Positions 9,272-32,157 of a stretch of 35,583 nucleotides of DNA are shown piece by piece (positions within the stretch are counted from its first letter, which is position 1; every line of letters begins with the position of its first letter). The notes beneath the pieces were generated by a model that was given only the letters and a program-made list of their open reading frames with translations, did no database searches and was not told the origin of the DNA. Position numbers and translations under genes: made by a program. Source of the stretch: Candidatus Aenigmatarchaeota archaeon (GTDB lineage: Archaea; Aenigmatarchaeota; Aenigmatarchaeia; QMZP01); assembly GCA_017609145.1 (NCBI GenBank), contig JAFCEM010000002.1, positions 1 through 35,583 on the forward strand, given 5' to 3'.

Positions 9272-11920
9272 ATGGTTGAGTTTCAGTTACTTGATGTAGA
9301 TTATGTTAATGTTAATGGAAAACCAATCATAAGGATTTTCGGCAAGACCGAGGATGGAGAAAGCGTCTGTGCCTTTTATGAGAACTTTGTTCCATATTTT
9401 TATGCGGAAGATGGTGCAGACAGGGTTCTTGAGGGCGAACCACAGGTGATAGAAATGGAGAGGGTCACCAAAAAAATGGTGATGGGCTATAACGTGACCA
9501 AGCAGCTTTACAAAATAAAAATAAAGGATCCCTCGAAGACCCCGGAACTTCGTGAAAGGCTGTCCGCCAGCGGAATAAAGACATATGAAGCGGACATACT
9601 CTTCAAGTATCGCTTTTTGACTGACCTTGATATGCAATGCCTTGGGTGGATAAGAACGAACGTGGATAATGGCGCGGCAACGAATACCGTCTCTGTTGAT
9701 AAGAAAATAGAGCTCAAGGATATGGAAAAGTTGGATAAGGAAAAGGATGCCCCGCTAAAAATTATGGCATTTGACATAGAATGTATAGCTATGGAAGCCG
9801 GGAATGTACCGGATTCAAAGACGGATCCCATAATTCTAATATCAGTAGTATTCAGTGAACCATACAAGGGCCAGAAATCAATGGTTCTGGGCACCAGAAC
9901 TGGTAGGGGAGTTAATCCCTACACATCGGAAAAGGAAATGCTTGAGGGTTTTGTTAATATAATAAATGAATACGACCCGGATATAATAACCGGTTACAAT
10001 GTTAACAATTTTGATATACCTTATGTTGTTGAAAGAATGAGACAAAATAAGGTAAAGCCGGTTTTTGGAAGATGCAATGAAAAACAAGTTATGGCCAGAA
10101 AGATTGGAAATAGATACAAGGTATCGATATCTGGCAGGATCATTGTTGACAGTTTTGAGTTGGTGAAAAAAGATTTTTCTCTGAAAAGATACGGGCTTGA
10201 TTACGTGTCACAGAATCTGCTTAACGAAAAAAAGGTTGATGTAAAGCACTCGGAGATTGAAAGGTTATGGAAGGGTAGTACGGAAGAGTTTGAAAAATTG
10301 GTGAATTATTCCAGGGTTGATTCGGTGCTTGCAATGAATCTTGTACAGAAACTTAACTTAATTGATAAATACGTAGCTCTTTCAAAGATATCAGGCACCC
10401 TGTTACAGGATACGCTCAATATGGGTGAAACAACACGCATAGAGAATTTCCTTCTCAGAGAATTCAACAGACGCGGTTATGTATATTCCGGCAGACCTAA
10501 CCAAAGCGAGGTTTCGAGAAGGGAGAAGAACAGGAGAAAGGAACTGAAGGGTGGATTCGTCCTGGAGCCCGAGAAAGGCCTGCACTCATCTGTGCTTGTT
10601 CTTGACTTCAAGAGCATGTATCCTTCAATAATAAGAAGTTTCAACATATGTCCCACGACCCTTTTAACGAACGAGTCCCAAGAGCCGCCTGAGGATGTAA
10701 TAACAACCGTAGCGGGCACGAAATTCGTTTCAAAAAATGTTAAGGAAGGCATTATACCTCATGTGCTTGAAAAACTAATGAAGAAGAGGCAGGAGACCAA
10801 GCGCGCCCTGAAGAAAGAAAAGGATCCTGCAAAGAAAAAGAGTCTTCATGCGCGCCAATGGGCACTCAAAATACTGGCGAACGCCTTTTACGGGCATATG
10901 GGATATGTGAGGGCAAAAATATACAACTTGGATATAGCTAATACCATAACATCCAGCGGCAGGGATATAATACACAAAACAAAAACAGAGATCGAAAAGA
11001 AATATGGATATAAGGTTGTTTATGGTGATACGGATTCTGTAATGGTTAAAGTTGATAATGAAACTGACATGCAGAAAATCAGACAAATCGGTACAGAGAT
11101 ATCAAAACATATTACAGAAAAACTGCCGGGATACCTTGAACTTGAGTTTGAAAAGTTCTTTAAGCAGTTCCTTCCCTTAACCAAGAAAAGATATGTTGCA
11201 TGGAAATTTGAGCCTGATGGTGATGGCTGGCAGGAAGGTATAGAAATGAAGGGGATAGAAACCGTGAGAAGGGACTGGTGTGACTTGGTATCTGAGACGC
11301 TCAGTGAGATTATAGAGATTATACTGAAGAAGGGTGATGTAAAAGGAGCTTTGGAATATTTCAAATCCGTGATCAAGAACCTTATGCGAAACAAAATTCC
11401 TACGGAAAAACTGGTCATAACAAAGACCATAACCAAGGCGCCTGGCAAGTATGAAGGTATACAACCACATATAGAAGCGGCAAAAAAAATTACAGCAAGG
11501 AATCCCAACGAAGCGCCTGGTATAGGCGACAGGATTGGCTATGTGATAATCAAAGGCACTGACATGCTTTCAAAGAGGGCGGAAGACCCGACCTTTGTCG
11601 CTGAAAGGGGGATTGAAATTGATCCAAAGTATTACATAGAGAATCAGTTGCTGCCTCCTATGGAAAGGATATTTTCTGTTCTCAGCATATCCAAGTCCGA
11701 GCTTCTCGGGAACGGGAAGCAAATGGGGCTCATGGAAGCCATCAATAATTACAACGAAACCAATCATATAAAGGTGCTCCCACGAACTGAGACCAATGGT
11801 TTTATATGCACCAAGTGCAGCAAATTCTATCCAAGGATACCTCTCGTAGGCACATGTGAATGTGGAGGGGAGCTTGCTTTTTCATCACCCAAAGGCATGG
11901 TCAAACAGGTCACATTATGA
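9272..11920 (+). CDS. polB: Family B DNA polymerase with an extra C-terminal Cys4 zinc ribbon
   Basis: Exo I FDIE, Exo II NVNNFDIPY, Exo III YSRVDS. Pol A DFKSMYPSI, Pol B KILANAFYG, Pol C YGDTDS, and KKRY. A further ~55 aa follow the usual archaeal PolB end and contain CTKC-x12-CEC. Confidence 0.95.
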   Translation: MVEFQLLDVDYVNVNGKPIIRIFGKTEDGESVCAFYENFVPYFYAEDGADRVLEGEPQVIEMERVTKKMVMGYNVTKQLYKIKIKDPSKTPELRERLSASGIKTYEADILFKYRFLTDLDMQCLGWIRTNVDNGAATNTVSVDKKIELKDMEKLDKEKDAPLKIMAFDIECIAMEAGNVPDSKTDPIILISVVFSEPYKGQKSMVLGTRTGRGVNPYTSEKEMLEGFVNIINEYDPDIITGYNVNNFDIPYVVERMRQNKVKPVFGRCNEKQVMARKIGNRYKVSISGRIIVDSFELVKKDFSLKRYGLDYVSQNLLNEKKVDVKHSEIERLWKGSTEEFEKLVNYSRVDSVLAMNLVQKLNLIDKYVALSKISGTLLQDTLNMGETTRIENFLLREFNRRGYVYSGRPNQSEVSRREKNRRKELKGGFVLEPEKGLHSSVLVLDFKSMYPSIIRSFNICPTTLLTNESQEPPEDVITTVAGTKFVSKNVKEGIIPHVLEKLMKKRQETKRALKKEKDPAKKKSLHARQWALKILANAFYGHMGYVRAKIYNLDIANTITSSGRDIIHKTKTEIEKKYGYKVVYGDTDSVMVKVDNETDMQKIRQIGTEISKHITEKLPGYLELEFEKFFKQFLPLTKKRYVAWKFEPDGDGWQEGIEMKGIETVRRDWCDLVSETLSEIIEIILKKGDVKGALEYFKSVIKNLMRNKIPTEKLVITKTITKAPGKYEGIQPHIEAAKKITARNPNEAPGIGDRIGYVIIKGTDMLSKRAEDPTFVAERGIEIDPKYYIENQLLPPMERIFSVLSISKSELLGNGKQMGLMEAINNYNETNHIKVLPRTETNGFICTKCSKFYPRIPLVGTCECGGELAFSSPKGMVKQVTL

Positions 11921-13325: not shown

Positions 13326-14288
13326 TTACCTAATTTTTTGGAATTTGGTTTCGTGTGACCAGAGATTCACCAGAGCTGTGGTTTCCCTGTCGCAGGATAT
13401 TATATTCACACCCTTGTAGTTCTCGTTCCATGTATTCTTCTGCAGCAACCAGAACACGGTTGGAATGGGGTTTATAAGATGTGGGTCATTGGGAGGACGT
13501 ATTTCATTTTTGTTTGGAGAAAGATGCCTCTTTCTGAGCCAGGAGATTGCCTTTTCCGGCGTGGCATCTTCAGTAGGGGAATAGAATAGTATATTTATTT
13601 TCGTGGTTTTCTTTGAGATGCCTATCCAGCATGGGTTATGGGGACAGGTTATTATCCTCCTGGACTTCTTGCTTGGTGTGGCCGGAGTAATTATAAAACC
13701 CACACTACCCATGGCCTCAATCTCCTGTGTCAGTTGTGCTGTAAGAATGATATTGATATCAATTCTTTCAGGTTTGTTGCTAAGGGGCACATCAGGCAGT
13801 ACTACTTCCCTTGCAAACATCTTCCCTTCTTTCACAGAACCGGTGAGTCCTATCACATCATCAACCGCAACATGGTTGGTATTTTCGCCTTGTAGTATGA
13901 CAGGAATCTCTCCTGTAGGGTCTTCCAATATCATACCGCTGGGGGTTAGCTCCCTGACCATTCCTATAACAGAAATCTCTGAGAAAGCAGACTTTGCATT
14001 GTTTATTGAAACCGCATTGAGCTTGGCTGACAACATTTCCTTGATGGTGTTGTATCTGGTCTTGTAATAATCAGTAAAATCCTGAACCCCCAGCTTGTTT
14101 TTTGTTTTGGTTTTTGTAACGCGTGCCGAAGGGGCGGATTCGTCGGTTTTGGTGAATACAATCTCATCCGACTGCCCTGCGCTATGTAGGAGCTGTCGCA
14201 TCCTGTCTTCATTCAGGTTTTCAACAAGCTCGGGAGAGAGCAACACACCGGATTTCAGAAGCAGCCTGAGCATTTCCTTCTTGTCCAT
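13326..14288 (-). CDS. DNA polymerase II (PolD) small subunit DP1-like protein, shortened and lacking phosphodiesterase motifs
   Basis: DP1-like N-terminal helical region (MDKKEMLRLLLKSGVLLSPELV). OB-fold core ISVIGMVRELTPSGMILEDPTGEIPVIL...VIGLTGSVKEGKMFAREVVLPDVPL. Conserved late motif WLRKRHLSP. No DxH, GDxxD, GNHD or GHxH motifs. The start at ATG 14288 is preferred over 14321 because a TATA-like TTAAATTTTTT on the coding (minus) strand lies about 20-30 nt upstream of it. Confidence 0.65.
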   Translation of the reverse strand: MDKKEMLRLLLKSGVLLSPELVENLNEDRMRQLLHSAGQSDEIVFTKTDESAPSARVTKTKTKNKLGVQDFTDYYKTRYNTIKEMLSAKLNAVSINNAKSAFSEISVIGMVRELTPSGMILEDPTGEIPVILQGENTNHVAVDDVIGLTGSVKEGKMFAREVVLPDVPLSNKPERIDINIILTAQLTQEIEAMGSVGFIITPATPSKKSRRIITCPHNPCWIGISKKTTKINILFYSPTEDATPEKAISWLRKRHLSPNKNEIRPPNDPHLINPIPTVFWLLQKNTWNENYKGVNIISCDRETTALVNLWSHETKFQKIR

Positions 14289-14348
14289 GGTTAGATTTGT
14301 GAGTAAAAAATTTAAGAGCATACCGAAACGTAAATAACTCGTAAATAA

Positions 14349-15551
14349 CTAAAAGAGGGAGCGCTCCTGTAGTATTTTCTTGATCCTGCCTGTTATTGCT
14401 TTGTTTGAGGGTATTGTTATCTCCCTCGTTCTCCCGTACCTGCCCCTAGATATCACCCTTGCATTGATTACACCAAGCATGTCAAGTTCGGCCACAAGGT
14501 CTGATATCCTTCTTTGTGTGAGCGGCCTTATGGCACACTGTCTGCATATCTTTTCATAATACACGAAAACGTCTCCGGTCTGTATGTTCTGGTGGCCGTC
14601 TTCAGTAAGCTTGATTATGGCTGATAACACAGACTGTGACTGTCTTGGCTGGCTCTTAACTATTTCTTCAACCCTGTCCATATCCAGCCGTTCCTCTGCC
14701 ATGTCAATATACTCGGTTCCTATCTTGAGTGCCCCGGACCTTTCCGCAATCTCACCAGCTATCCTCAGAAGGTCAAGCGCGCGGCGGGCGTCGCCGTGCT
14801 CCTGCGCGGCAAGGGCAGAACACTTAGATAAAACCCCCTCTTCAAGCACATTCTCGTTGAAGGCATCCAGTGCCCGCTCCCCGAGTATGTCCTTTAGTTG
14901 GTTTGCGTTGTAGGGGGAGAATATTATCTCTTCTTCCGACAGCGAGGACTTGACCCTGGGGTCGATATCGTTCATGAAGGTTGTGTTGTTGGATATGCCT
15001 ATAATCGATAGTTTGGCGTTCTTGAGTTCCTGGTTTATTCTCGTAAGATTGTAGAGAATCTCGTCCCCGGCCTTTTCGATAAGGACATCAATCTCATCGA
15101 GCACGAGTATCACACTCTGTTTTCTGGAATCAAGCGCATTGAAGAACATGTTATAGATGTGGTCGGTTGGCAGGCCGGTTGGTGGGACGAAAAGCCCAAG
15201 TTTTCGTGTGAGTTCGGCAAGCAGCCTGTATTCAGTGTCCGACACCTTCTTCATCTTGCAGTTTACATAAAGTATCCTGACGTTTTCTGATGCCTTTTCG
15301 AGCTCTGACGCAACATACTTCATCGATACACTCTTGCCTGTGCCAACAGTGCCGAATAGGAACATATTGGACGTCTTCTCCCCCCTGAGGCTCGGTGCGA
15401 GCGTCTCCGCTATCTGTTTTATCTCCCTCTCACGGTGAAGAATGTGGTCAGGCATATAGTGGTCTGTCAGGCTTTCCTTGTTCCTGAATATGCTCTTCCT
15501 TTCAATATACTGCTTAAATATTTGATTTAGATTGAGCTGAGTTGCTGGCAT
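14349..15551 (-). CDS. cdc6: Orc1/Cdc6 replication initiator
   Basis: AAA+ Walker A FGTVGTGKS, Walker B VLDEID, sensor regions and a C-terminal winged helix (ISDLVAELDMLGVINARVISRGRYGRT). Confidence 0.95.
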   Translation of the reverse strand: MPATQLNLNQIFKQYIERKSIFRNKESLTDHYMPDHILHREREIKQIAETLAPSLRGEKTSNMFLFGTVGTGKSVSMKYVASELEKASENVRILYVNCKMKKVSDTEYRLLAELTRKLGLFVPPTGLPTDHIYNMFFNALDSRKQSVILVLDEIDVLIEKAGDEILYNLTRINQELKNAKLSIIGISNNTTFMNDIDPRVKSSLSEEEIIFSPYNANQLKDILGERALDAFNENVLEEGVLSKCSALAAQEHGDARRALDLLRIAGEIAERSGALKIGTEYIDMAEERLDMDRVEEIVKSQPRQSQSVLSAIIKLTEDGHQNIQTGDVFVYYEKICRQCAIRPLTQRRISDLVAELDMLGVINARVISRGRYGRTREITIPSNKAITGRIKKILQERSLF

Positions 15552-15584
15552 AAATTCTATATGAAACCATTATTTAAATTGTTT

Positions 15585-15775
15585 TCCAAACAATTTCATG
15601 TGCAGTTCATATGGATAGCAGACCACCCCACAGTTTCTCATGGAAACAGCACACAACAACAAACATTCGAAAAGAAAAACAACTATAACATTGTTATATT
15701 ATAATTAATAAAATTATTTTATTTTATTAAGCAATTCCACAGGAAATCATGGTGTGGTGTTCCAGTAGTTCCGAA
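15585..15775. other. Probable chromosomal replication origin (oriC): inverted ORB-like boxes flanking an AT-rich unwinding element
   Basis: Minus-oriented CACATGAAAT (15593-15602) and TTTCCATGAGAAACTGTGGGGTGG (15623-15646). A near-pure AT tract at 15691-15730 has one G in 40 nt. Plus-oriented TTCCACAGGAAATCATGGTGTGGTG (15735-15759) and TTCCAGTAGTTCC (15760-15772). The region lies immediately upstream of cdc6. Confidence 0.6.
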
Positions 15776-16061
15776 TGGCAAAATCAAATGTTTTGGTTTC
15801 TAGTTAATACACTACTCTTATATTCCGGTTTGATTAGTAACTCTTTGGGTGTATTATCAGGCCCTAATAAGAGTTTTGTAATATCCTTGTATAGTGATTT
15901 TCTCCTTCAATCACAATCTTCTTGTAATTCAATATCAATTATCCCACACTAATATCCAATGATACTTAATTATCGATATTTTGTCTATTTTCGGGTTGGT
16001 GTATTATATTTTTGGTAAACATCAAACCCAAACCTTAAAAAACCACAACTAATTATTTAAT

Positions 16062-16745
16062 ATGAAAATGATTGTATTCGCTGATGTGCATGGGGACTTT
16101 GACACCCTGTCCTCTGTACTTGAGAAAATTAGCAAGAACGATGTTGAAGAGGCAGACCTTGTTGTGTGCCCAGGTGATTTTACGGATATGTTCTCAACAC
16201 CTGAGGAATTTTCTCAGATGGATATAGCTGATATGGTTCTCCAGCGACTGATGTCTCTGGGCAAGCCCCTACTCTGCATCCCCGGAAACCATGACCCCTA
16301 TGAAATTCTCAATGAATTTGATGAGTTTGGTGTGAACCTTCACAACAAAACCAAAACAATAAACAACATAAAATTCGTCGGTTGGGGTGGTGCCGCAACC
16401 CCCTTTGATACCATCTTCGAGCCGCCCGAGCCTGAGACAAAAGAAGCCCTTGAAACACTTGGTGAGGGGATTGATTCCAAATTCGTGCTCATCATCCACA
16501 ATCCACCAAAGGATACGAAAGTGGATATGGTGAGCTCCGGGGAGCACGTCGGCTCCCAGGCCATAAGAGATTTCGTTGCAGAGAAGCAGCCGATTCTCGC
16601 AGTGTCTGCACATATACACGAAGCCACGGGTACTGATAAACTTGGAAAAACAACACTATTCAATCCAGGACCTGTTTTTAACAGGCAGTACGGTGTTGTC
16701 GAGATAAAAGGGAACAATGTAAATTGTAGAATAAAAAAAGTTTAG
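16062..16745 (+). CDS. Calcineurin-like metallophosphoesterase
   Basis: All five motifs are present: ADVHGD, PGDFTD, GNHD, HNPP and SAHIHE. Confidence 0.85.
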   Translation: MKMIVFADVHGDFDTLSSVLEKISKNDVEEADLVVCPGDFTDMFSTPEEFSQMDIADMVLQRLMSLGKPLLCIPGNHDPYEILNEFDEFGVNLHNKTKTINNIKFVGWGGAATPFDTIFEPPEPETKEALETLGEGIDSKFVLIIHNPPKDTKVDMVSSGEHVGSQAIRDFVAEKQPILAVSAHIHEATGTDKLGKTTLFNPGPVFNRQYGVVEIKGNNVNCRIKKV

Positions 16746-17479
16746 TGGTCCAGTTTTTGGAGGTTTTCCACTATCTTATCAACACTATCGAATCTGCACA
16801 CTGTAAGTGGTATGCCCTCTGCATCAGCTATCCTTTTGGCAATCTCATCAACCATATTGAGCCCGTGAAGCACAATAATTGGTGGATGAAGATTGGTAAC
16901 CTTCACGGCGACCATCGGTGTTTTCCCTGTAGATACCTTTGTAAATATCATGGCCCTTTGTGTTGTCATCCCATAGAGTTTGATGAGCTCCGAAAATGAA
17001 AGCTCTGTTATGGCTTTGAGGGAGTCGATTATAGTGTAACCATATATCTTCTGATTAAGCTTCTGGTTGTTTTTCGTGACAAATGTAGCATTTATTTGCT
17101 TGCAGAAATCGTAAATACTGATACCGGAAGAGAATTCCTTAATATCGATTATAGCATTGGAAAGTGGTCTGGAAGAGGAATCGTGCTTCACAAAGGTCTT
17201 TATCACATTACCTCCCCTTTTCATGTCTATGGAGATGAGTGTGTTGATGTACTTTTTGATTACCTTGATGCCGGGTGACTTTCTCCTCCCAGACTCGTAA
17301 TCGGAAACAACTGAAGATGTTATACCGAGCTCGTTTGCCAGGTTTTTCTGTGATATCTTGAATATATTTCTCCATTTCTTTATGACCTTTTCCGGACTGT
17401 CCGATGTTACTATCTCACCTGCTATATCCCTCACAAGTTTATCCTTCGCAATAGAATTTTCGTCAGTTAACTCATCCAT
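16742..17479 (-). CDS. XRE-type HTH transcriptional regulator (archaeal conserved family)
   Basis: HTH segment ISQKNLANELGITSSVVSDYESGRR followed by a ~150 aa C-terminal domain. Confidence 0.65.
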   Translation of the reverse strand: MDELTDENSIAKDKLVRDIAGEIVTSDSPEKVIKKWRNIFKISQKNLANELGITSSVVSDYESGRRKSPGIKVIKKYINTLISIDMKRGGNVIKTFVKHDSSSRPLSNAIIDIKEFSSGISIYDFCKQINATFVTKNNQKLNQKIYGYTIIDSLKAITELSFSELIKLYGMTTQRAMIFTKVSTGKTPMVAVKVTNLHPPIIVLHGLNMVDEIAKRIADAEGIPLTVCRFDSVDKIVENLQKLDH

Positions 17480-17535
17480 ATTCGGTAATTAACTTATATG
17501 TATTTAAATTTATTCCAAATCCCTATATTATAACC

Positions 17536-17919
17536 ATGAAAAACACCACAGCCAAGGGCGCGAGGTTTGAGCGCGATATCCTGCATTTTCTCAATGGCAA
17601 GGGATTCAGCTGCATGAGGGCACCCTCGTCAGGGAACTGGTTATCACCTGTTGATGTTGTTGCAATAAAAAGAGGGAGCGTGCTTGCAATAGAGTGTAAG
17701 AACCATTCAAAGAAACCAAAACTCAATCAAAAAAGCATGCAGAAGTTCAGGGAATGGTGCGACCGCGCAGGCGCAACCGGGCTTCTCGCATGGCAGGTGC
17801 CTGGCACGGGCTCAGGCGCCAGCTGGAAGTTCCTGCGGCTGGAAGACGCGGAGAACAACAGATACGAGGATGAGAACTGGTTTGATATACAGGTCTTCAT
17901 GAAGGTTTTTTGCGTCTAA
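17536..17919 (+). CDS. hjc: Holliday junction resolvase Hjc
   Basis: KGARFERDILHFLNGKGFSCMRAPSSG...VDVVAIKRGSVLAIECK, which is the E...D...E-x-K nuclease signature of archaeal Hjc. The size fits (127 aa). Confidence 0.8.
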   Translation: MKNTTAKGARFERDILHFLNGKGFSCMRAPSSGNWLSPVDVVAIKRGSVLAIECKNHSKKPKLNQKSMQKFREWCDRAGATGLLAWQVPGTGSGASWKFLRLEDAENNRYEDENWFDIQVFMKVFCV

Positions 17920-21986: not shown

Positions 21987-22829
21987 ATGAAAAGCGTGAC
22001 AAAGACCATGGTAAAGAGGTTGTTTCCGAAGAGGAAGCCGTGGAGCTACAAAGGTAGGTTTGGCAAGCTTCTCGTTGTGGGTGGTAGCCTGAGATATTCC
22101 GGCTCGCCAGCATTCGTTGCACTGGCTGCTATAAGGACCGGTACCGATCTCACACTCATTGCTGCGCCGCGCAGGGCTGCTGACATAGTTGCACGCTTCC
22201 AGCCGGATCTGATAACAGAGCCACTAAAAGGCGACTATATTAACCCGATTCATGTAGGTCACGTTTTGGAACTCGCTGAATGGGCCGATGCCCTTGTGAT
22301 AGGCGGAGGGCTTGACAGGAATCCAAAGACATATGATGCTGTCCGCAGCATAATAAAAGATATCAAAAAAATGGACAAGCCGTGTGTCATTGATGCAGAG
22401 GCTCTCCGTGCGGTTGCTGGTTATGAAAAGCTGATGAGAAGCAATTTTGTGCTGATGCCACACGGGGATGAGTTCCATGCGCTTACTGGTAAAAAACCAG
22501 ACACTGGCATAAAACAGCGCAGCAATCTGGTCGCTTCTTCCGCAAAGAAGCTTAGATGCACGATTCTGCTCAAGGGTCGTGTTGATGTGATATCAGACGG
22601 TAGGGATACCCATCTGAACAAAACAGGTAACCCCTACATGACAAAAGGCGGCACGGGGGATACACTCGCAGGTATTTGCGGTGCATTGCTCGCGCAGGGG
22701 AACAATACAATCAATGCTGCATGCGCTGCTGCGTGGATTAACGGTGCTGCGGGTGATATGGCAGTTCGTGTGATTGGTAAGGGGTTTTTCGTATCCGAAA
22801 TGCTTGATTTCATACCAAAAGTGATTTGA
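21987..22829 (+). CDS. nnrD: ADP/ATP-dependent NAD(P)H-hydrate dehydratase (YjeF C-terminal domain family)
   Basis: GKLLVVGGSLRYSGSPAFVALAA, VIDAEAL and GGTGDTLAG motifs. Its start directly abuts the upstream stop. Confidence 0.8.
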   Translation: MKSVTKTMVKRLFPKRKPWSYKGRFGKLLVVGGSLRYSGSPAFVALAAIRTGTDLTLIAAPRRAADIVARFQPDLITEPLKGDYINPIHVGHVLELAEWADALVIGGGLDRNPKTYDAVRSIIKDIKKMDKPCVIDAEALRAVAGYEKLMRSNFVLMPHGDEFHALTGKKPDTGIKQRSNLVASSAKKLRCTILLKGRVDVISDGRDTHLNKTGNPYMTKGGTGDTLAGICGALLAQGNNTINAACAAAWINGAAGDMAVRVIGKGFFVSEMLDFIPKVI

Positions 22830-24139
22830 TGAGCACCAAAAAAGTGATTATTCTCGGCGCAGCCGGAAGGGATTTCCATAACTTTAATACACTTTTTCGC
22901 AAAAACTCCGCATACAATGTCATATGCTTTACAGCTGCACAAATACCCAATATATCCGGAAGAAGATACCCCCCAGAGCTTGCGGGAAAGCAATACCCAA
23001 AAGGCATACCAATATATCCAGAAGAAGACCTACCAAGACTTATAAGGAAATACAAAACCGATATTGTTATACTCTCTTACAGTGATTTATCTTATGCCAA
23101 TAGCATGCATAAAGTTTCGCTGGTAAATTCTTATGGTGCAGATTTCTGTTTCCTTGACCCGAAGAAAACTATGCTGAAATCAAAGAGGCCTGTAATAGCT
23201 GTGACAGCTGTAAGAACAGGATGCGGCAAGAGCCAGGCAACACAGAGGATATGCAGCATACTAAAGAAAAAAGGTAAAAAGGTTGTTGTTGTCAGGCATC
23301 CTATGCCTTATGGTAACCTGAAAAAACAGGCATGCCAGAGATTTGCAAGCATAGCAGACCTGAAGAAGCACAATTGCACAATAGAAGAAATGGAGGAATA
23401 CATACCCCACATAGAAATGGGAACAGTTGTTTACGCAGGTGTTGATTACGAGATGATTTTAAGAGAAGCTGAAAAGGAATCAGATATAATAGTCTTTGAT
23501 GGTGGCAACAATGACTGTCCGTTCTTCTTTCCGGACCTCTGGCTCGTCCTGCTGGACCCTCTCAGGCCCGGGCACGAGATATCCTATTATCCCGGAGAAA
23601 TTAACCTTCGCATGGCTGACATAGCAATAATAAACAAGATAAGAGTAGCCAAACCGGAGAACATACAAAAAGTCCATTCCAACATAAAAGAGTACAACCC
23701 GAAAGCAAGGATTATCGAAACAGAGTCGGCAATCGTGGTTGACAACCCCGCATTGATAAGGAAGAAGAAAGTGTTGGTAATAGAGGACGGACCGACTTTA
23801 ACACACGGAGAGATGAATTATGGCGCAGGTGTGATAGCGGCCAGAAGATTCAGCGCAATACCAATTGACCCGAGGAAGCATGCGGTCGGCTCATTGAGAA
23901 AACTCTACAGTAAATATACTAAACTCGGCCCGCTTCTTCCGGCTATGGGATATTCAAAAAGACAAATACTGGAGCTTGAAAAAACCATAAACAGGACACC
24001 ATGTGATGCCGTAATATGCGCAACGCCAATTGACCTCAGGAAATTTATGAGTATAAAAAAGCCCCTCGTAAAGGTTTCTTACATGCTTAAGGAGAGAGGA
24101 AAAATAAAGCTTGACTATATACTGAAAAGGTTCATGTAA
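22826..24139 (+). CDS. P-loop protein of the cyclic 2,3-diphosphoglycerate synthetase-like (predicted GTPase) family
   Basis: N-terminal ILGAAGRDFHNFN and P-loop AVRTGCGKS. The family assignment is from memory and is tentative. Confidence 0.5.
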   Translation: MMSTKKVIILGAAGRDFHNFNTLFRKNSAYNVICFTAAQIPNISGRRYPPELAGKQYPKGIPIYPEEDLPRLIRKYKTDIVILSYSDLSYANSMHKVSLVNSYGADFCFLDPKKTMLKSKRPVIAVTAVRTGCGKSQATQRICSILKKKGKKVVVVRHPMPYGNLKKQACQRFASIADLKKHNCTIEEMEEYIPHIEMGTVVYAGVDYEMILREAEKESDIIVFDGGNNDCPFFFPDLWLVLLDPLRPGHEISYYPGEINLRMADIAIINKIRVAKPENIQKVHSNIKEYNPKARIIETESAIVVDNPALIRKKKVLVIEDGPTLTHGEMNYGAGVIAARRFSAIPIDPRKHAVGSLRKLYSKYTKLGPLLPAMGYSKRQILELEKTINRTPCDAVICATPIDLRKFMSIKKPLVKVSYMLKERGKIKLDYILKRFM

Positions 24140-24179: not shown

Positions 24180-24896
24180 ATGACATGGATTAACGATGTA
24201 ATGAAAAGAACATTTCACTACAAACCCCCGGTGCTTGGGGGAAGATCGGAAAAGCTCGGCAAAGTGAGCTTTGATGACCTTGTCTTTGTTCCTGCACAGT
24301 TGCACAGAAGACCAGTTGATTATTTCAGGGAAAACATAAACACCAAAACCGTAATAGGAAAGAAAAGCAAGAAGCCGCTTGTTTTGAATATGCCAATATT
24401 TGTGGCTGCCATGAGTTTCGGGGCTCTCAGTAAAGAGGCAAAGATTGCGCTTGCAAAGGCCAGCTCCTCTGTCGGTACGGCTACAAACACTGGTGAAGGC
24501 GGCATGCTTCGAGAGGAACGCAATAACGCAAAGCTGCTCATAGCCCAGTACTCAACAGGAAGATTTGGTGTTGACAAAAAATATATACAGAATGCTGATG
24601 CTATTGAAATTAAGATAGGCCAGGGCGCAAAGCCCGGCCAAGGCGGACTGTTACCAAAAGAAAAGGTCACAGCAGATATAATGAAAGCAAGGAATGTTAA
24701 GGAACCAAAGGATCTTCATTCTCCGTGCGCGCACCCGGACATACATACCATAAACGATCTCAGAAAAAAGGTTTCGTGGCTGAAAAAATTGTCTGGAGGA
24801 AAGCCAATAATAATAAAGCTGGGTGCCGGTAATGTTGAAAAGGACGTGGCTGCTGCCCTAAAGGCAGGTCCGGATGCAATAGCCTTGGAGAGATAA
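24180..24896 (+). CDS. Glutamate synthase domain-2-like FMN oxidoreductase, N-terminal fragment
   Basis: MPIFVAAMSFGALSKEAKIALAKA...NTGEGG...KIGQGAKPGQGGLLP, which are typical GltB FMN-domain motifs. The ORF ends at a TAA inside the conserved core. Confidence 0.75.
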   Translation: MTWINDVMKRTFHYKPPVLGGRSEKLGKVSFDDLVFVPAQLHRRPVDYFRENINTKTVIGKKSKKPLVLNMPIFVAAMSFGALSKEAKIALAKASSSVGTATNTGEGGMLREERNNAKLLIAQYSTGRFGVDKKYIQNADAIEIKIGQGAKPGQGGLLPKEKVTADIMKARNVKEPKDLHSPCAHPDIHTINDLRKKVSWLKKLSGGKPIIIKLGAGNVEKDVAAALKAGPDAIALER

Positions 24897-25336
24897 TGCT
24901 GAATGACTTTGGCATTCCCACACTATCTGCCATAGTCAGGGCGAGAAAAACACTCGACAAACTCGGTGCAAAACAGGAGTTGCTTGTGGGCGGCGGTCTC
25001 AACAAAGGCAGTGATATCGCCAAGGCCCTTGCATTGGGTGCTGATGCCGTGTTCATGGGCTTTGCCCTGCTTGTTGCAATGGGGTGCATGTATTGCAGAC
25101 AGTGCTTCAGGGGAACCTGCCCCAAGGGCATAACAACACAGACACCAAGGCTCAGGAAGAATCTTCATATCAACAAGGCAGCAAAATCCATAAGTAATTT
25201 TCTGAACTGTTGCAACGAAGAGGTAAAAATGGCAGCGGCGGCAACAGGAAAATGTGATGTCCATAAACTTGATAGACATGACCTGAGAGCAAAGAATATA
25301 AACACATCAAAGATAACGGGCGTTGAGCTTGTATAA
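24896..25336 (+). CDS. Glutamate synthase domain-2-like FMN oxidoreductase, C-terminal fragment
   Basis: FGIPTL...LLVGGGLNKGSDIAKALALGADAV...GCMYCRQCFRGTCPKGITTQ continues the same family in another frame. The ATG overlaps the upstream TAA (TAATG). Confidence 0.7.
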   Translation: MLNDFGIPTLSAIVRARKTLDKLGAKQELLVGGGLNKGSDIAKALALGADAVFMGFALLVAMGCMYCRQCFRGTCPKGITTQTPRLRKNLHINKAAKSISNFLNCCNEEVKMAAAATGKCDVHKLDRHDLRAKNINTSKITGVELV

Positions 25337-25822
25337 TCACCAGACCCATATATTGATAACCAGGACTGCCGACCCTTGATCTGAAAGCGCGAACCTCTTG
25401 ACATGAGCCACTGTCGCAGAGCCCGGCATGGCTGCGTCTTCACAATTTAGAAGAGTTTCGCTGCCTTTCATTATATTTATTTTTACCGTTCTTTTACTGA
25501 AGTCTCCAGTAAAATCAAGTTTGCTGAGAACGTCATCAAAATCACTTTCGCAGTAATTATTTAGATGCTCTATCTTTGCCTCACTGAGCACGGGCCATTT
25601 AGATGCCAGACCAAGCACAATAGGGACATCACCATCCCACGTGCCCGTGTTTTTAAGCAAAAGTTCTGATATCTGTATTGCTTTTGAATACAAAGAGTTT
25701 GAATAAAAAGCAAAACTGAAGCCTGAGGCAGTCGCACTGAGGTAATTTATGCTATAGAAGATTATGCTGAAAAAAAGTATGGTTGCCAGCAGAAATTCAA
25801 ATATCATCTGCCCCTTTTTCAT
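25337..25822 (-). CDS. Type IV pilin-like protein with a class III signal peptide
   Basis: N-terminus MKKGQ|MIFEFLLATILFFSIIF: a basic residue plus Gly at -1, Glu at +5 and then a hydrophobic helix. This is the prepilin peptidase substrate pattern. Confidence 0.6.
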   Translation of the reverse strand: MKKGQMIFEFLLATILFFSIIFYSINYLSATASGFSFAFYSNSLYSKAIQISELLLKNTGTWDGDVPIVLGLASKWPVLSEAKIEHLNNYCESDFDDVLSKLDFTGDFSKRTVKINIMKGSETLLNCEDAAMPGSATVAHVKRFALSDQGSAVLVINIWVW

Positions 25823-25851: not shown

Positions 25852-26874
25852 ATGACGACAAGAGCGCTTTTTCTTTTGCCTGTAATAGCCATTATTGTTC
25901 TCACATCCGGCTGTACCTTTTTCCCCAACGTCACTACAGGAGCGAGCGACGTGATTATCATACAAAGCATGAGTGCCATACCAAGTACAATTATGGCAGG
26001 ACAGAGTACCAAAATCACTGCTGTGATAAAGAATCAGGGTAGCGAGCATGTGCCGCAGAGCGGCATGGATGCAGACACAAATGTAATAACTGTACACCTC
26101 TACGATTATTGTCAGGGACTGTTCAGTCTATCGGATAACGACATGGTATGTAACGGGGAAAAGGTCCAAAGTAATGGTTCATCAAAGTTTGATATCTGTA
26201 AACTGAATACCCTATCAATAAATGAGATGAAACAGGTTGAATGGGGCCTCAAACAGACACCAAATGCACAGGTCAAGAGTACTTGTGACGTCAAGGTTTC
26301 CATTACCTATCCATACGAGACAATAGGTCTGACACCAATATATCTTATAAACTCTAAGGAGCTACAGAACCAGATAGCCGATGGCACATATGCTGGAAAA
26401 ACCCCTGATGTGACAAAGGGCGACGGGCCTGTGAAGGCGTGGTTCGAGGTTGTTGGCACGCAACCAGTTTCTGTTGACCCCGGCAGCAGCACAGAAAATA
26501 GCATAACACTTGAGCTTCACATTGAGAATACGGGCACGGGGAATGTGGAAAACAACAAAGTCTGGATCTCGGATATCAAGCTGGCAGCCAGTGATGGAAG
26601 TACGAATGATCAGATAATAATAAAGAACGAGGGTGCAACAGCAATTTGCAAGAGTTTGGGAGAATTAAATAACCAACCAAAGAAGGATAAACGGAAAGAT
26701 ATGATAGAAGTGGTTCTTGTCCAGGGTGAGAAAACCATAATCTGCCCTGCCACCATAAGCGATAGTCTGGCAAACTTCCCAAAGGAGACAACAACTCACG
26801 CAGAGGTTACGATACAATATACCTATGAGGACACGAAGGAGACCAAGGTCACTGTTGAGCCGCTGGTTGCCTGA
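25852..26874 (+). CDS. Secreted lipobox protein, paralog 1 (two beta-sandwich/CARDB-like modules)
   Basis: Signal peptide ending in the lipobox LTSG|C. Module signatures ...MAGQSTKITAVIKNQGSEHV... and ITLELHIENTGTGNV. Shared blocks with the next two ORFs. Confidence 0.6.
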   Translation: MTTRALFLLPVIAIIVLTSGCTFFPNVTTGASDVIIIQSMSAIPSTIMAGQSTKITAVIKNQGSEHVPQSGMDADTNVITVHLYDYCQGLFSLSDNDMVCNGEKVQSNGSSKFDICKLNTLSINEMKQVEWGLKQTPNAQVKSTCDVKVSITYPYETIGLTPIYLINSKELQNQIADGTYAGKTPDVTKGDGPVKAWFEVVGTQPVSVDPGSSTENSITLELHIENTGTGNVENNKVWISDIKLAASDGSTNDQIIIKNEGATAICKSLGELNNQPKKDKRKDMIEVVLVQGEKTIICPATISDSLANFPKETTTHAEVTIQYTYEDTKETKVTVEPLVA

Positions 26875-26947: not shown

Positions 26948-27877
26948 ATGCCAAAAACCGAAGTTCTCAAAAACATGAAACTGGCTATTCTTATTTTGCC
27001 AATCATTGCAATCGTCGCCGTCTCCGGTTGCACCACCGGTACCACTATAGTGACAGGGAACGGCATAATAATCGAGGAATTCAAGCCCACACTGACAGAC
27101 GTCTATTCCCAGGATCCTGTGGGACTCATGCTCAAGATAGAGAATCGGGGCGAAGCAAAGGCAGAGGACATAGAGGCGCTAATCTTCAATATAAATATAG
27201 ATGACTGGGATGTATCTGATGAAGAGAAAGACCTTAATGACCTGCTTGGAGTTGATCCTTTCACGTCAACACCCGGAGGAACAAAGACCGTCTACTGGTC
27301 AGATATGGAAGCGCCAGAGCTTGCAGCCAGCCTTGAGCACACATATACACCCAAAGTAAGGGTATCATATGATTACAGCACATCAGCTGAAAAACCAATC
27401 ACCATCGTGGACAGGGATGAGCTCATAAGCATAATACAACAGGGAGACTCCCTCCCAACAGGAACGACCACGTGCACAGCAGGCCCGCTTTCAGTTGATA
27501 TAATGACCGGCGACTATGTTGCAAGTCCTGACACCTCGGGTGATGATCCCTTCAATCTCCACATCTACATAACCAATCTTTTGTATGGTAGCCAGGGAAA
27601 GGTAGTTGAGGGAGACTTTGGTGACAGTGAAGACCAGTACCCTCTTGAGATGAAGATAACGCTGCCTGATGAACTTGACTTTACCTCAGATTCTCCTGAT
27701 GAATGCAGCGAATCATGGACGGCCATAAGCATGTGGGACGCACATGATACGGAAATAACATGCCAGCTTCAGGTTGAAGAGGGCCCGGAAATAATGACAG
27801 AGGGTCTGATAAAGGTGGACATCAGGTACAGGTTTGCAATTGATGCCTCGACAACAATCAAGGTTACAGGAATTTAA
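26948..27877 (+). CDS. Secreted lipobox protein, paralog 2
   Basis: Lipobox AVSG|C. IIIEEFKPTLTDVYSQDPVGLMLKIENRGEAKA. SD-like GGAAGTGA just upstream of the ATG. Confidence 0.6.
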   Translation: MPKTEVLKNMKLAILILPIIAIVAVSGCTTGTTIVTGNGIIIEEFKPTLTDVYSQDPVGLMLKIENRGEAKAEDIEALIFNINIDDWDVSDEEKDLNDLLGVDPFTSTPGGTKTVYWSDMEAPELAASLEHTYTPKVRVSYDYSTSAEKPITIVDRDELISIIQQGDSLPTGTTTCTAGPLSVDIMTGDYVASPDTSGDDPFNLHIYITNLLYGSQGKVVEGDFGDSEDQYPLEMKITLPDELDFTSDSPDECSESWTAISMWDAHDTEITCQLQVEEGPEIMTEGLIKVDIRYRFAIDASTTIKVTGI

Positions 27878-27900: not shown

Positions 27901-28833
27901 ATGAAGAATCTTTCAGCCCCCACACTCGTTCTAATTTTCCTTGTTTTGATAATATCAGGCTGCACAACACAGGTTGTTCAGGTCACAGAAAAAGGCCTTG
28001 AAATAGAAACATTTGAAGCGGATTTCAGCAATGTTTATTCCGGAGAGCAGGTGGATTTTAGGATGATAATCAGGAATACGGGTTCTGCTGATTCGCCTGA
28101 GGTTTTTGCAGAGGTTCTCGGTATTGACCAGGAGTGGGGCCCAAACCCCGGAGTTGAAGTGCTGCCGAACGAAGACGAATGCAGGTATACCAGCTCGGAG
28201 CATTTCAGCCTTCTTGCCCCTGACACCATATCAGGGACACCGGGCGCTTCACACCAGTGCACATGGACTTATATAGCTCCTGTGTTGCCTGCAGGCCAGT
28301 CAATGACATACGAAGTGACCGGCAGGGTTTTTTACCGCTATTCAAGCGCTACCATAACATCTGTGACATTCGGCTCCTATGATGAAATTAAGCAACTGCA
28401 AAGCTCAGGGCAGTCGTTGCCCGCTGAAACTACATCATCAAGCAAGGGCCCGATAAAAATAGAGATTCAGACACAGGGACCAGTGCGCTTTTCCGAGAAT
28501 GAGGGCGAGGCAGAATTTCCGTTATATATAACAGTTAAAAACCTGGGTGGTGGTGTTGTATGCAACACAGAAAAACCCAACGATTGCAGTATGCATTCCG
28601 ACGTGGATTATAGAAACAAGATTGACATTACACTTTCTGCGAGCAACATAGATCTTGCGGACTGTGAAAAAAAGGCCCTGTCAGTCTTTACCGGCAGCTA
28701 TAATTCTTACAGTTGTGAAGCAACTGCGACGGACCTTAAGGATCAGCCACTTACACAGAGAACGATAACAGCAAGCGCAGATTATAGCTACTACAGTGAC
28801 AAAGAGATAACAGTAATAGTGACCGGTGACTAG
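27901..28833 (+). CDS. Secreted lipobox protein, paralog 3
   Basis: Lipobox IISG|C. LEIETFEADFSNVYSGEQVDFRMIIRNTGSADS. The C-terminal block YSYYSDKEITVIVTG parallels paralog 2 (YRFAIDASTTIKVTG). Confidence 0.6.
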   Translation: MKNLSAPTLVLIFLVLIISGCTTQVVQVTEKGLEIETFEADFSNVYSGEQVDFRMIIRNTGSADSPEVFAEVLGIDQEWGPNPGVEVLPNEDECRYTSSEHFSLLAPDTISGTPGASHQCTWTYIAPVLPAGQSMTYEVTGRVFYRYSSATITSVTFGSYDEIKQLQSSGQSLPAETTSSSKGPIKIEIQTQGPVRFSENEGEAEFPLYITVKNLGGGVVCNTEKPNDCSMHSDVDYRNKIDITLSASNIDLADCEKKALSVFTGSYNSYSCEATATDLKDQPLTQRTITASADYSYYSDKEITVIVTGD

Positions 28834-32058: not shown

Positions 32059-32157
32059 GCCCTGGTAGCTCAGTAGGTAGAGCACACGGCTGTTAACCGT
32101 GGTGTCGGAGGTTCGAGAAATCCTTGTGAAAGGAAACCGGAATTCCTCCCCTGGGCG
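32059..32157 (+). tRNA. tRNA-Asn (GTT) with a ~26-nt intron in the T-loop
   Basis: Acceptor GCCCTGG / CCTGGGC (one U-U mismatch). D arm GCTC-AGTAGGTA-GAGC. Anticodon arm CACGG-CTGTTAA-CCGTG. T stem GGAGG (32107-32111) and CCTCC (32145-32149) are separated by 33 nt instead of 7. The insert contains the hairpin TCCTT-GTGA-AAGGA. Confidence 0.8.

What the first reader, a model, noticed from the sequence alone, without database searches (positions are those of the whole stretch)
13326..14321. Catalytically dead, shortened DP1 (PolD small subunit) homolog in the canonical oriC-cdc6-dp1 slot, with no DP2 beside it
Seen in the sequence:
- The protein has a DP1-like N-terminal helical region.
- It has a convincing DP1 OB-fold core (ISVIGMVRELTPSGMILEDPTGEIPVILQ...DDVIGLTGSVKEGKMFAREVVLPDVPL).
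- It keeps the late conserved block WLRKRHLSP.
- Where DP1 proteins start their Mre11-like phosphodiesterase domain with the D-x-H motif, this protein reads ILTAQLTQ.
- I find no GDxxD, GNHD, lone-His or GHxH equivalents. The closest are CPHNPC, ILFYS and LLQKN.
- The region after the OB fold is only ~150 aa, compared with roughly 250 aa in active DP1s.

Established knowledge: in Pyrococcus and many Euryarchaeota, oriC is followed by cdc6, DP1 and then DP2. Eukaryotic B subunits of Pol alpha, delta and epsilon are inactivated DP1 homologs that dock on C-terminal zinc modules of family-B polymerases.

In this window the DP2 slot is taken by a TctA-like membrane protein. The nearest polymerase is a PolB with an extra C-terminal Cys4 ribbon.

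Inference: this may be a eukaryote-like B-subunit working with PolB rather than with PolD. I do not know of such an arrangement being described in archaea, and that needs a literature check.
Basis: partly seen in the sequence, partly recalled or inferred. Interest (0 to 1): 0.82.

Follow-up and report, generated by a model that had tools for sequence, protein, structure and literature searches.

The report
Inactive DP1 partner of archaeal PolB
This gene encodes a shortened, catalytically dead copy of the archaeal polymerase D small subunit that very likely docks on a zinc ribbon at the end of the neighbouring family B polymerase, a eukaryote-like arrangement already described for Aenigmatarchaeota in 2020 and supported by yeast two-hybrid tests in 2025.

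Summary
ORF 13326-14321(-), with a probable start at Met12 (14288), is a real DP1/B-subunit homolog:
- It matches NCBIfam DP1 at E=3e-25.
- The family profile aligns to canonical DP1 with hhalign probability 99.9%, E=6e-36.
- The AlphaFold2 model (pLDDT 87) has DP1 or eukaryotic B-subunits as its top 44 PDB matches.

All phosphodiesterase metal ligands are gone:
- Motif I D/H is replaced by Q196/T198.
- Motif II is deleted.
- Motif III N/H is replaced by T215/P216.
- Motif IV H is replaced by S248.
- Motif V H/H is replaced by Q294/N296.

No alternative His/Asp set is conserved in 153 relatives.

The gene is not decaying. At least 252 clusters (50% identity) hold full-length relatives. The order Cdc6, DP1-like, (TctA), convergent PolB recurs in Aenigmatarchaeota loci. 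Every complete neighbouring PolB carries a Cys4 ribbon homologous to DP2 Zn-III (profile E=2e-8).

Kazlauskas et al. 2020 (NAR) described this inactive DP1 with a Zn-motif PolB and no DP2 in Aenigmarchaeota. A 2025 Nat Ecol Evol paper reported AlphaFold3 and yeast two-hybrid evidence for the DP1-PolB contact.

I could not test DP2 absence or the interface for this genome.

The parts
13326..14288 (-). DP1-like (B-subunit-like) gene. Probable start is Met12 at 14288, the stop codon is 13326-13328, and the mechanical ORF extends to 14321.
14172..14288 (-). N-terminal helical domain (aa 12-50). It is conserved in the family (G25, P30) and may correspond to the DP1 N-terminal domain.
   Evidence: Conserved. 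It is helical in the model. The match to DP1N structures 2kxe and 7e15 is only E=0.6-1, so this is inconclusive.
13782..14090 (-). OB-fold domain (aa ~78-180), ending in the conserved PDVPL linker.
   Evidence: NCBIfam DP1 E=3.4e-25; PDB DP1 profile hits; hhalign; pLDDT above 90.
13329..13766 (-). Reduced, inactivated phosphodiesterase-fold domain (aa 186-331). All five metal-ligand motifs are lost and it is about 125 aa shorter than in canonical DP1.
9272..11920 (+). Family B DNA polymerase (882 aa) with intact exonuclease motifs (FDIE, NNFD, YSRVD) and polymerase motifs (DFKSMYPS, KILANAFYG, YGDTDS). It is the presumed catalytic partner.
   Evidence: Sequence. Pfam PF00136 E=1e-115 and PF03104 E=3e-42. 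It neighbours the DP1-like gene in all sufficiently long related loci.
11798..11917 (+). C-terminal Cys4 zinc ribbon of PolB (aa 843-882; Cys846, 849, 862, 864). It is homologous to the Zn-III module of the DP2 C-terminal domain.
   Evidence: NCBIfam DP2 PRK04023 positions 1041-1077, E=3e-4. Pairwise match to T. kodakarensis DP2 1127-1165. A profile of 13 PolB C-termini hits DP2 at E=2e-8 and 5e-7, with the next hit at 0.016. It is conserved in 12 of 12 neighbouring PolBs.
14349..15551 (-). Orc1/Cdc6 initiator gene, immediately upstream and co-directional with the DP1-like gene.
   Evidence: NCBIfam NF001625 E=5e-149 and Pfam Cdc6_C/Cdc6_lid. The adjacency is conserved in all related loci.
15552..16061 (.). 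Candidate replication origin: an AT-rich gap with two ORB-core-like boxes (15635-15646 TTCTCATGGAAA and 15735-15746 TTCCACAGGAAA).
   Evidence: 7 matches in the window against 1.95 expected, two of them in this gap. The same box occurs in the Cdc6-upstream gap of 13 of 14 loci. Origin function is inferred, not shown.

Best explanation
The gene encodes a non-catalytic second subunit of the replicative polymerase, derived from DP1, in an Aenigmatarchaeota archaeon.

It keeps three parts of DP1: the N-terminal helical domain, the OB fold, and a trimmed phosphodiesterase fold. The last two together form the docking groove. It has lost every nuclease metal ligand.

Its partner is the convergently encoded family B polymerase. 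That enzyme has its own intact 3'-5' exonuclease and carries at its C-terminus a single Cys4 ribbon derived from the Zn-III module of the DP2 C-terminal domain.

By analogy with PolD and with eukaryotic Pol alpha, delta and epsilon, the ribbon inserts into the groove between the OB and phosphodiesterase domains. This gives a two-subunit PolB holoenzyme in which the small subunit is a scaffold rather than a proofreader.

Shown here: homology, inactivation, conservation, gene linkage, and the DP2 origin of the ribbon.
Taken from the literature: absence of DP2 from Aenigmatarchaeota, and the yeast two-hybrid interaction.
Inferred: the scaffold role, including a possible link to GINS/CMG through the N-terminal domain.
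For: - Homology to DP1 and B-subunits: the top 44 Foldseek hits are all DP1 or B-subunits; model pLDDT 87; hhalign 99.9%.
- Inactivation.
- Selection, not decay: 252 clusters (50% identity) at E<1e-30, all about 265-370 aa and full length. tblastn matches run uninterrupted across nearly the whole protein in most loci, apart from those on truncated contigs.
- Gene linkage: Cdc6, DP1-like, (TctA), PolB in L001-L021.
- The ribbon is present in all 13 PolBs examined and is homologous to DP2 Zn-III.
- Zn-III is the DP1-docking element. [quoted passage not shown]
- PolB catalytic and exonuclease motifs are intact.
- Literature: PMC7544198 and PMC12680538 report no DP2 in Aenigmatarchaeota and a yeast two-hybrid interaction between DP1 and PolB-DP2CTD.
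Against: - No interface prediction or experiment exists for these exact proteins.
- DP2 absence was not checked in this genome; only 35.6 kb is visible.
- The PolB C-terminal domain is 'degenerate' (PMC12680538). Only the ribbon is clearly DP2-like, and the KxRRxP loop reads K-F-Y-P-R-I-P.
- The DP1-like protein diverges much faster (24-44% identity) than PolB (52-67%) or Cdc6 (51-73%). That is unusual for an obligate core subunit.
- Pfam PF04042 does not detect the protein.
Confidence: 0.85

Rival explanations
1. The gene is a decaying relic of DP1, left behind after PolD was lost, with no current function.
For: All catalytic motifs are lost and about 125 aa are deleted. It diverges faster than its neighbours.
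Against: - Intact full-length ORFs occur in at least 252 clusters at 50% identity.
- Non-catalytic residues are strongly conserved: S105, E133-D134, T136-G137, P176, R265, P287, Y302-K303-G304 at 93-100%.
- The model is confident and well folded.
- The position next to Cdc6 and PolB is fixed across a phylum.
- A yeast two-hybrid interaction is reported in PMC12680538.
Confidence: 0.02
2. The protein still serves a PolD: a DP2 is encoded elsewhere in this genome and uses it as a non-proofreading small subunit.
For: Only 35.6 kb of the genome is visible. Kazlauskas et al. say DP2 is absent in 'most', not all, sequenced Aenigmarchaeota, and they show an Aenigmarchaeota DP2 alignment (Fig. S16).
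Against: PMC12680538 states that Aenigmatarchaeota lack DP2 while retaining DP1. The neighbouring PolB carries the DP2-type docking ribbon in every locus, which makes sense only if PolB is the partner.
Confidence: 0.06
3. Its main role is at the origin rather than in the polymerase. For example, it could be an OB-fold ssDNA-binding or Cdc6-associated factor, which would explain why it is co-transcribed with orc1/cdc6.
For: It lies directly downstream of and co-directional with Cdc6 in all loci, next to a gap with ORB-like boxes. It retains an OB fold.
Against: The cdc6-DP1 adjacency is ancestral (Pyrococcus oriC-cdc6-DP1-DP2; established knowledge) and does not imply an initiator role there. 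The conserved surface elements are those of the DP2-docking region. This role would not exclude the polymerase-subunit role.
Confidence: 0.07

Closest known systems
[quoted passage not shown] 2020, NAR, PMC7544198; interaction tested in PMC12680538, 2025)
   Same: - Aenigmatarchaeota origin.
- DP1 homolog with inactivated phosphoesterase motifs.
- Neighbouring PolB with one C-terminal Cys4 motif most similar to DP2 Zn-III.
- No DP2 nearby.
   Different: Nothing essential differs. This copy shares only 24-55% identity with other members. The conserved oriC, Cdc6, DP1-like, (TctA), PolB gene order and the roughly 125-aa reduction of the phosphodiesterase domain are details I did not find in the parts of those papers I read.
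Canonical archaeal DP1 (PolD small subunit; e.g. P. abyssi, PDB 5IHE, 6HMF, 6T8H)
   Same: - N-terminal helical region, OB fold, PDVP linker and phosphodiesterase fold.
- RHLxP, PD(I/L)F and Y(K/N)GV blocks.
- Position downstream of cdc6 next to an origin.
- Docking partner carrying a Zn-III ribbon.
   Different: - All five Mre11-like metal-ligand motifs are lost.
- About 125 aa of the phosphodiesterase domain are missing.
- About 320 aa in total, against 480-720 aa.
- The partner is PolB, not DP2.
Eukaryotic B-subunits of Pol alpha, delta, epsilon and zeta (e.g. PDB 6TNY_B, 5VBN_A, 4Y97)
   Same: An OB fold plus an inactivated phosphodiesterase fold (Foldseek E=8e-14 to 1e-7). They are non-catalytic scaffolds bound to a Cys-rich C-terminal domain of a family B polymerase.
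   Different: - The partner's C-terminal domain has one Cys4 motif (equivalent to CysB/Zn-2), not two, and little of the helical bundle.
- The small subunit is much smaller.
- Whether it is ancestral to the eukaryotic subunits or a parallel development is unresolved. PMC12680538 favours Baldrarchaeia PolB3 as closer to the eukaryotic enzymes.
Baldrarchaeia (Asgard) PolB3-DP2CTD plus DP1 (PMC12680538)
   Same: A lineage that lacks DP2 and retains DP1, with a PolB fused to a DP2-derived C-terminal domain. The interaction was shown by yeast two-hybrid.
   Different: Baldrarchaeial PolB3 has a fuller DP2 C-terminal domain, while the Aenigmatarchaeota one is called degenerate. It belongs to a different phylum.

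Membership tests
DP1 / DNA polymerase B-subunit superfamily | OB-fold domain homologous to the DP1 OB fold | tested here: met
   NCBIfam DP1 E=3.4e-25; PDB DP1 E=1.5e-17; hhalign 99.9%.
DP1 / DNA polymerase B-subunit superfamily | Calcineurin/Mre11-like phosphodiesterase fold C-terminal to the OB fold | tested here: met
   A second HMM stretch aligns to the DP1 phosphodiesterase C-terminal half. Full-length Foldseek matches to DP1 and B-subunits give TM(query) 0.5-0.63. hhalign covers aa 1-331. The fold is reduced by about 125 aa.
DP1 / DNA polymerase B-subunit superfamily | Pfam PF04042 (DNA_pol_E_B) hit above the gathering threshold | tested here: not met
   No PF04042 hit even at E<=1. The precomputed Pfam field is also empty for all relatives. 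Homology is visible only to more sensitive methods.
DP1 / DNA polymerase B-subunit superfamily | N-terminal helical domain like DP1N (GINS-binding in Thermococcus) | tested here: inconclusive
   The profile of aa 12-52 hits 2kxe_A and 7e15_C only at E=0.56 and 0.96, among chance hits.
Active PolD small subunit (proofreading DP1) | Five metal-ligand motifs (DxH, GDxxD, GNHD, H, GHxH) | tested here: not met
   The ligand positions read Q196/T198, deletion, T215/P216, S248 and Q294/N296. No conserved His/Asp set exists in 153 relatives.
Active PolD small subunit (proofreading DP1) | A DP2 large subunit encoded in the same genome | not testable with these tools
   No DP2 is in the window. Whole genomes could not be scanned. 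The literature reports DP2 absent from Aenigmatarchaeota.
Aenigmatarchaeota inactive-DP1 / PolB-DP2CTD system (Kazlauskas 2020) | Aenigmatarchaeota origin | tested here: met
   All 16 species-representative genomes with a relative are labelled Aenigmatarchaeota, 'uncultured archaeon', or in one case Nanoarchaeota. The whole neighbourhood is syntenic with them.
Aenigmatarchaeota inactive-DP1 / PolB-DP2CTD system (Kazlauskas 2020) | Co-occurring PolB with a single C-terminal Cys4 motif similar to DP2 Zn-III (B6-aenigma1 type) | tested here: met
   (profile E=2e-8 to DP2 Zn-III). There is only one CxxC...CxC motif in the tail.
Aenigmatarchaeota inactive-DP1 / PolB-DP2CTD system (Kazlauskas 2020) | PolB belongs to phylogenetic group B6 | not tested
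   No phylogeny with reference B6 sequences was made. The PolB is 52-67% identical to the PolBs of named Aenigmatarchaeota genomes.
Aenigmatarchaeota inactive-DP1 / PolB-DP2CTD system (Kazlauskas 2020) | Physical DP1-PolB C-terminal domain interaction | not testable with these tools
Yeast two-hybrid and AlphaFold3 evidence exists for Aenigmatarchaeota proteins in PMC12680538.
Eukaryotic polymerase B-subunits | Partner C-terminal domain with two Cys motifs (CysA and CysB) on a helical bundle | tested here: not met
   The PolB tail has one Cys4 motif only.

The most novel reading that the evidence does not exclude
This may be the most reduced B-subunit known, at about 320 aa with roughly 125 aa of the phosphodiesterase fold removed. 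It keeps only the Zn-ribbon docking groove and a DP1N-like N-terminal domain. In this reading its real job is to tether the PolB replicase to GINS/CMG, as Dpb2 does for Pol epsilon. The fixed oriC, cdc6, DP1-like, PolB block would then be a co-inherited replication module, possibly of mobile-element origin as Kazlauskas et al. speculated. None of this is shown. The N-terminal homology is only suggestive.
Probability: 0.3. Interest if true: 0.5.

Novelty: already known. Interest (0 to 1): 0.3.

Why it matters
The arrangement is a family B polymerase with a DP2-derived zinc module bound to an inactivated DP1. It is the archaeal counterpart of the eukaryotic Pol alpha, delta and epsilon catalytic/B-subunit pairs, and it features in current scenarios for the origin of the eukaryotic replisome. 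Those ideas were published in 2020 and tested in 2025, so this window adds another, fairly divergent, example rather than a discovery.

What it does add:
- A residue-level map of the lost motifs.
- Evidence that the family is large and under selection.
- A conserved gene order around a likely origin.

Tried and rejected
- Pfam scan for PF04042: no hit. Homology had to be shown by NCBIfam, profile, structure and hhalign instead.
It worked with the 11 closest sequences.
- Search of the 2020 paper's supplements for accession numbers (GCA_002789635, OIN85950, RLJ05308), to link my sequences to their groups: nothing found in the stored text.
- Profile of the N-terminal domain against the PDB: the DP1N structures appear only at E about 0.6-1, among chance hits to protein A repeats. 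Inconclusive.
- The idea that the conserved stand-alone metallophosphoesterase across the origin (16062-16745) is a displaced DP1 nuclease domain: rejected. It matches generic Metallophos, YfcE and SbcD families and shows no DP1 similarity.
- Pseudogene or decay reading: rejected on conservation and family size.
- dN/dS was not attempted, because the closest relative is only 55% identical and synonymous sites would be saturated.

Full report
**Observation.** The ORF at 13326..14321(-) encodes 331 aa. All relatives begin at the residue equivalent to Met12 (MDKKE...), so the real protein is probably about 320 aa and starts at 14288. Pfam finds only a sub-threshold OB-fold hit and no PF04042. NCBIfam places aa 71-186 on the DP1 model PRK04036.1-3 at E=3.4e-25. 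No DP2 is present anywhere in the window.

**Homology.** A search of 5.8 billion proteins found 20 full-length relatives of 270-350 aa with 27-56% identity, some labelled 'DNA polymerase II small subunit' by JGI and one from an Aenigmatarchaeota MAG.

A profile of these hits PDB DP1 chains (6KNB_A, 5IHE, 6T8H) at E=1.5e-17 to 7e-15, in two stretches:
- The OB fold.
- The C-terminal end of the phosphodiesterase domain, where LLKkRHLsP aligns to LLKLRHIAP, PDilwliqkk to PDLFQAGHVH, and NYKGV to YNGV.

An AlphaFold2 model built on the alignment is confident (mean pLDDT 87.4, pTM 0.77). Its best 44 Foldseek matches in the PDB are all DP1 or the B-subunits of eukaryotic Pol delta, epsilon, alpha and zeta (E=6e-15 to 2e-6). 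The next matches are only OB folds of lysyl-tRNA synthetases.

**Inactivation.** I recovered canonical DP1 genes from metagenome contigs. I aligned their profile to a 153-sequence profile of the short family with hhalign, which gave probability 99.94% and E=6e-36 over aa 1-331. The ligand positions map as follows:

| Motif | Canonical DP1 | This protein |
|---|---|---|
| I | SDiHvGS | T194-A195-Q196-L197-T198 (D replaced by Q196, H by T198) |
| II | GDvvDG | Inside a gap of about 70 aa |
| III | GNHD | A214-T215-P216, then a gap |
| IV | iaHG | F246-Y247-S248-P249 (H replaced by S248) |
| V | GHVH | L293-Q294-K295-N296 |

Across the 153 relatives, no column after the OB fold holds His, Asp, Asn, Glu or Cys in more than 54% of sequences. 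The one exception is D288 (80%, the PD of PDIF), which does not fall at any of the five ligand positions in the alignment. The protein therefore cannot have a conserved binuclear metal site. The region after PDVP is about 155 aa, against about 280 aa in the aligned canonical DP1.

**Not a decaying copy.** An exhaustive HMM search of 1.84 billion cluster representatives found 1168 proteins at E<=0.001 and 252 at E<=1e-30. The best 150 are all about 165-380 aa, and nearly all match the profile end to end. Non-catalytic positions are very well conserved: S105 99%, D134 99%, P176 100%, R265 99%, P287 99%, and Y302-K303-G304 93-96%.

**Taxonomy.** In species-representative genomes the family was found in 16 loci. 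Every named one is 'Candidatus Aenigmatarchaeota archaeon', apart from one MAG labelled Nanoarchaeota and several labelled 'uncultured archaeon'. Two are closed chromosomes, CP070801.1 and CP070804.1.

**Gene neighbourhood.** The order Hjc, HTH, metallophosphoesterase, intergenic gap, Cdc6, DP1-like, (TctA), convergent PolB, NAC recurs in nearly all loci long enough to show it. TctA is sometimes absent (L002, L006), so it is a passenger and not a functional replacement for DP2. The DP1-like protein diverges faster (24-44% identity to the window) than Cdc6 (51-73%) or PolB (52-67%).

**The partner polymerase.** The PolB has intact exonuclease motifs (FDIE, NNFD, YSRVD) and polymerase motifs (DFKSMYPS, KILANAFYG, YGDTDS), all visible in the sequence. 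Its last 40 residues form a Cys4 ribbon, FICTKCSKFYPRIPLVGTCECGG. Evidence that the ribbon derives from DP2:
- NCBIfam places aa 843-878 on DP2 PRK04023 positions 1041-1077 (E=3e-4).
- phmmer aligns it to T. kodakarensis DP2 1127-1165, [24 protein letters not shown].
- The ribbon is present in all 12 complete neighbouring PolBs from related loci.
- A profile of the 13 tails hits only DP2 Zn-III significantly in the whole PDB: E=2e-8 for T. kodakarensis and 5e-7 for P. abyssi, with the next hit at 0.016.

In PolD, Zn-III fits the groove at the DP1 OB/PDE interface. [quoted passage not shown] The same docking geometry is seen for the eukaryotic Zn-2 module and B-subunits (PMC6355029).

**Origin.** The 510-bp gap upstream of cdc6 (15552-16061) has low G+C. 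It holds two ORB-core-like boxes matching TTCNNNNGGAAA. The window has 7 such matches against 1.95 expected. The same box, often the classical TTCCAGTGGAAA, occurs in the equivalent gap of 13 of 14 loci. This supports the 'oriC-cdc6-DP1 slot' description. Origin activity is inferred, not shown.

**Mechanism.** The protein is most likely the non-catalytic second subunit of a two-subunit PolB holoenzyme.
- Shown here: descent from DP1, loss of the nuclease site, purifying selection, tight gene linkage with a PolB, and the DP2 Zn-III origin of that PolB's tail.
- From the literature: Aenigmatarchaeota lack DP2 while keeping DP1, and DP1 binds the PolB-DP2CTD fusion but not canonical PolBs, in AlphaFold3 predictions and yeast two-hybrid assays (PMC12680538).
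- Inferred: proofreading is done by PolB's own exonuclease. The small subunit serves as a scaffold, possibly linking the polymerase to GINS/CMG through its N-terminal helical domain as DP1N and Dpb2 do. The N-terminal homology is only suggestive.

I could not co-fold the two proteins, and I could not scan a whole genome for DP2.

**Comparison with what is known.** The arrangement is published. Kazlauskas et al. 2020 (PMC7544198) report the following:
- They found C-terminal Zn-binding motifs in archaeal PolB groups B10 and B6.
- They distinguished B6-aenigma1 (one motif, most similar to DP2 Zn-III) from B6-aenigma2 (two motifs).
- They noted that DP2 is absent from most sequenced Aenigmarchaeota.
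- They proposed this as a possible archaeal forerunner of the eukaryotic catalytic/B-subunit pairs.

The 2025 paper adds the interaction data. It calls the Aenigmatarchaeota C-terminal domain 'degenerate', and it reassigns the two-motif sequences to Baldrarchaeia. The window matches the B6-aenigma1 plus inactive-DP1 description in every feature I could test. Two features were not tested: the PolB phylogenetic group and DP2 absence from this genome.

**Verdict.** This is a further, fairly divergent member of an already described system. The residue-level motif map, the size of the family, the extent of the phosphodiesterase reduction and the conserved origin-proximal gene order are modest additions.

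Noticed in passing
window 24180-24896 and 24896-25336 (+): A glutamate-synthase domain (PF01645) is split over two adjacent ORFs that overlap by one base. They cover profile positions 51-234 and 251-367. This is either a frameshift or sequencing error, or a genuinely split gene.
   Followed up: no
window 16062-17919; also L002-L020: A block of Hjc resolvase (17536-17919), an HTH protein (16742-17479) and an intact stand-alone metallophosphoesterase (16062-16745) lies on the far side of the putative origin. The block is syntenic in at least 12 Aenigmatarchaeota loci. The phosphoesterase is a generic calcineurin-like enzyme with no DP1 similarity. Its conserved position next to the origin is unexplained.
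   Followed up: partly
window 32066-32126 (+): An Rfam tRNA hit lies just above threshold (29.7 bits against a cut-off of 29; model positions 8-63), and ARAGORN does not call it. It could be a degenerate, intron-containing or partial tRNA, about 340 nt upstream of tRNA-Phe.
   Followed up: no
window 22826-24139, 25337-25822, 25852-26874, 26948-27877, 27901-28833: Five sizeable ORFs have no Pfam match, and the four of them tried in NCBIfam (all but 25337-25822) have no match there either. Four of the five are consecutive.
   Followed up: no
L002 2006-8522: In one relative (a 520-kb JGI contig), about 7 kb is inserted between the metallophosphoesterase and Cdc6, in the presumed origin region. 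The insert carries a DDE transposase, an SMC_N-like protein, an AAA ATPase and several unknown genes.
   Followed up: no
L005 10880-11230: One relative has an extra 116-aa OB-fold gene (PF01336) between the DP1-like gene and TctA.
   Followed up: no
window 13326-14288 versus neighbours; L001-L021: The DP1-like protein diverges much faster (24-44% identity) than the flanking Cdc6 (51-73%) and PolB (52-67%). L021 has the most divergent copy (24%), and its PolB is on the same strand.
   Followed up: partly
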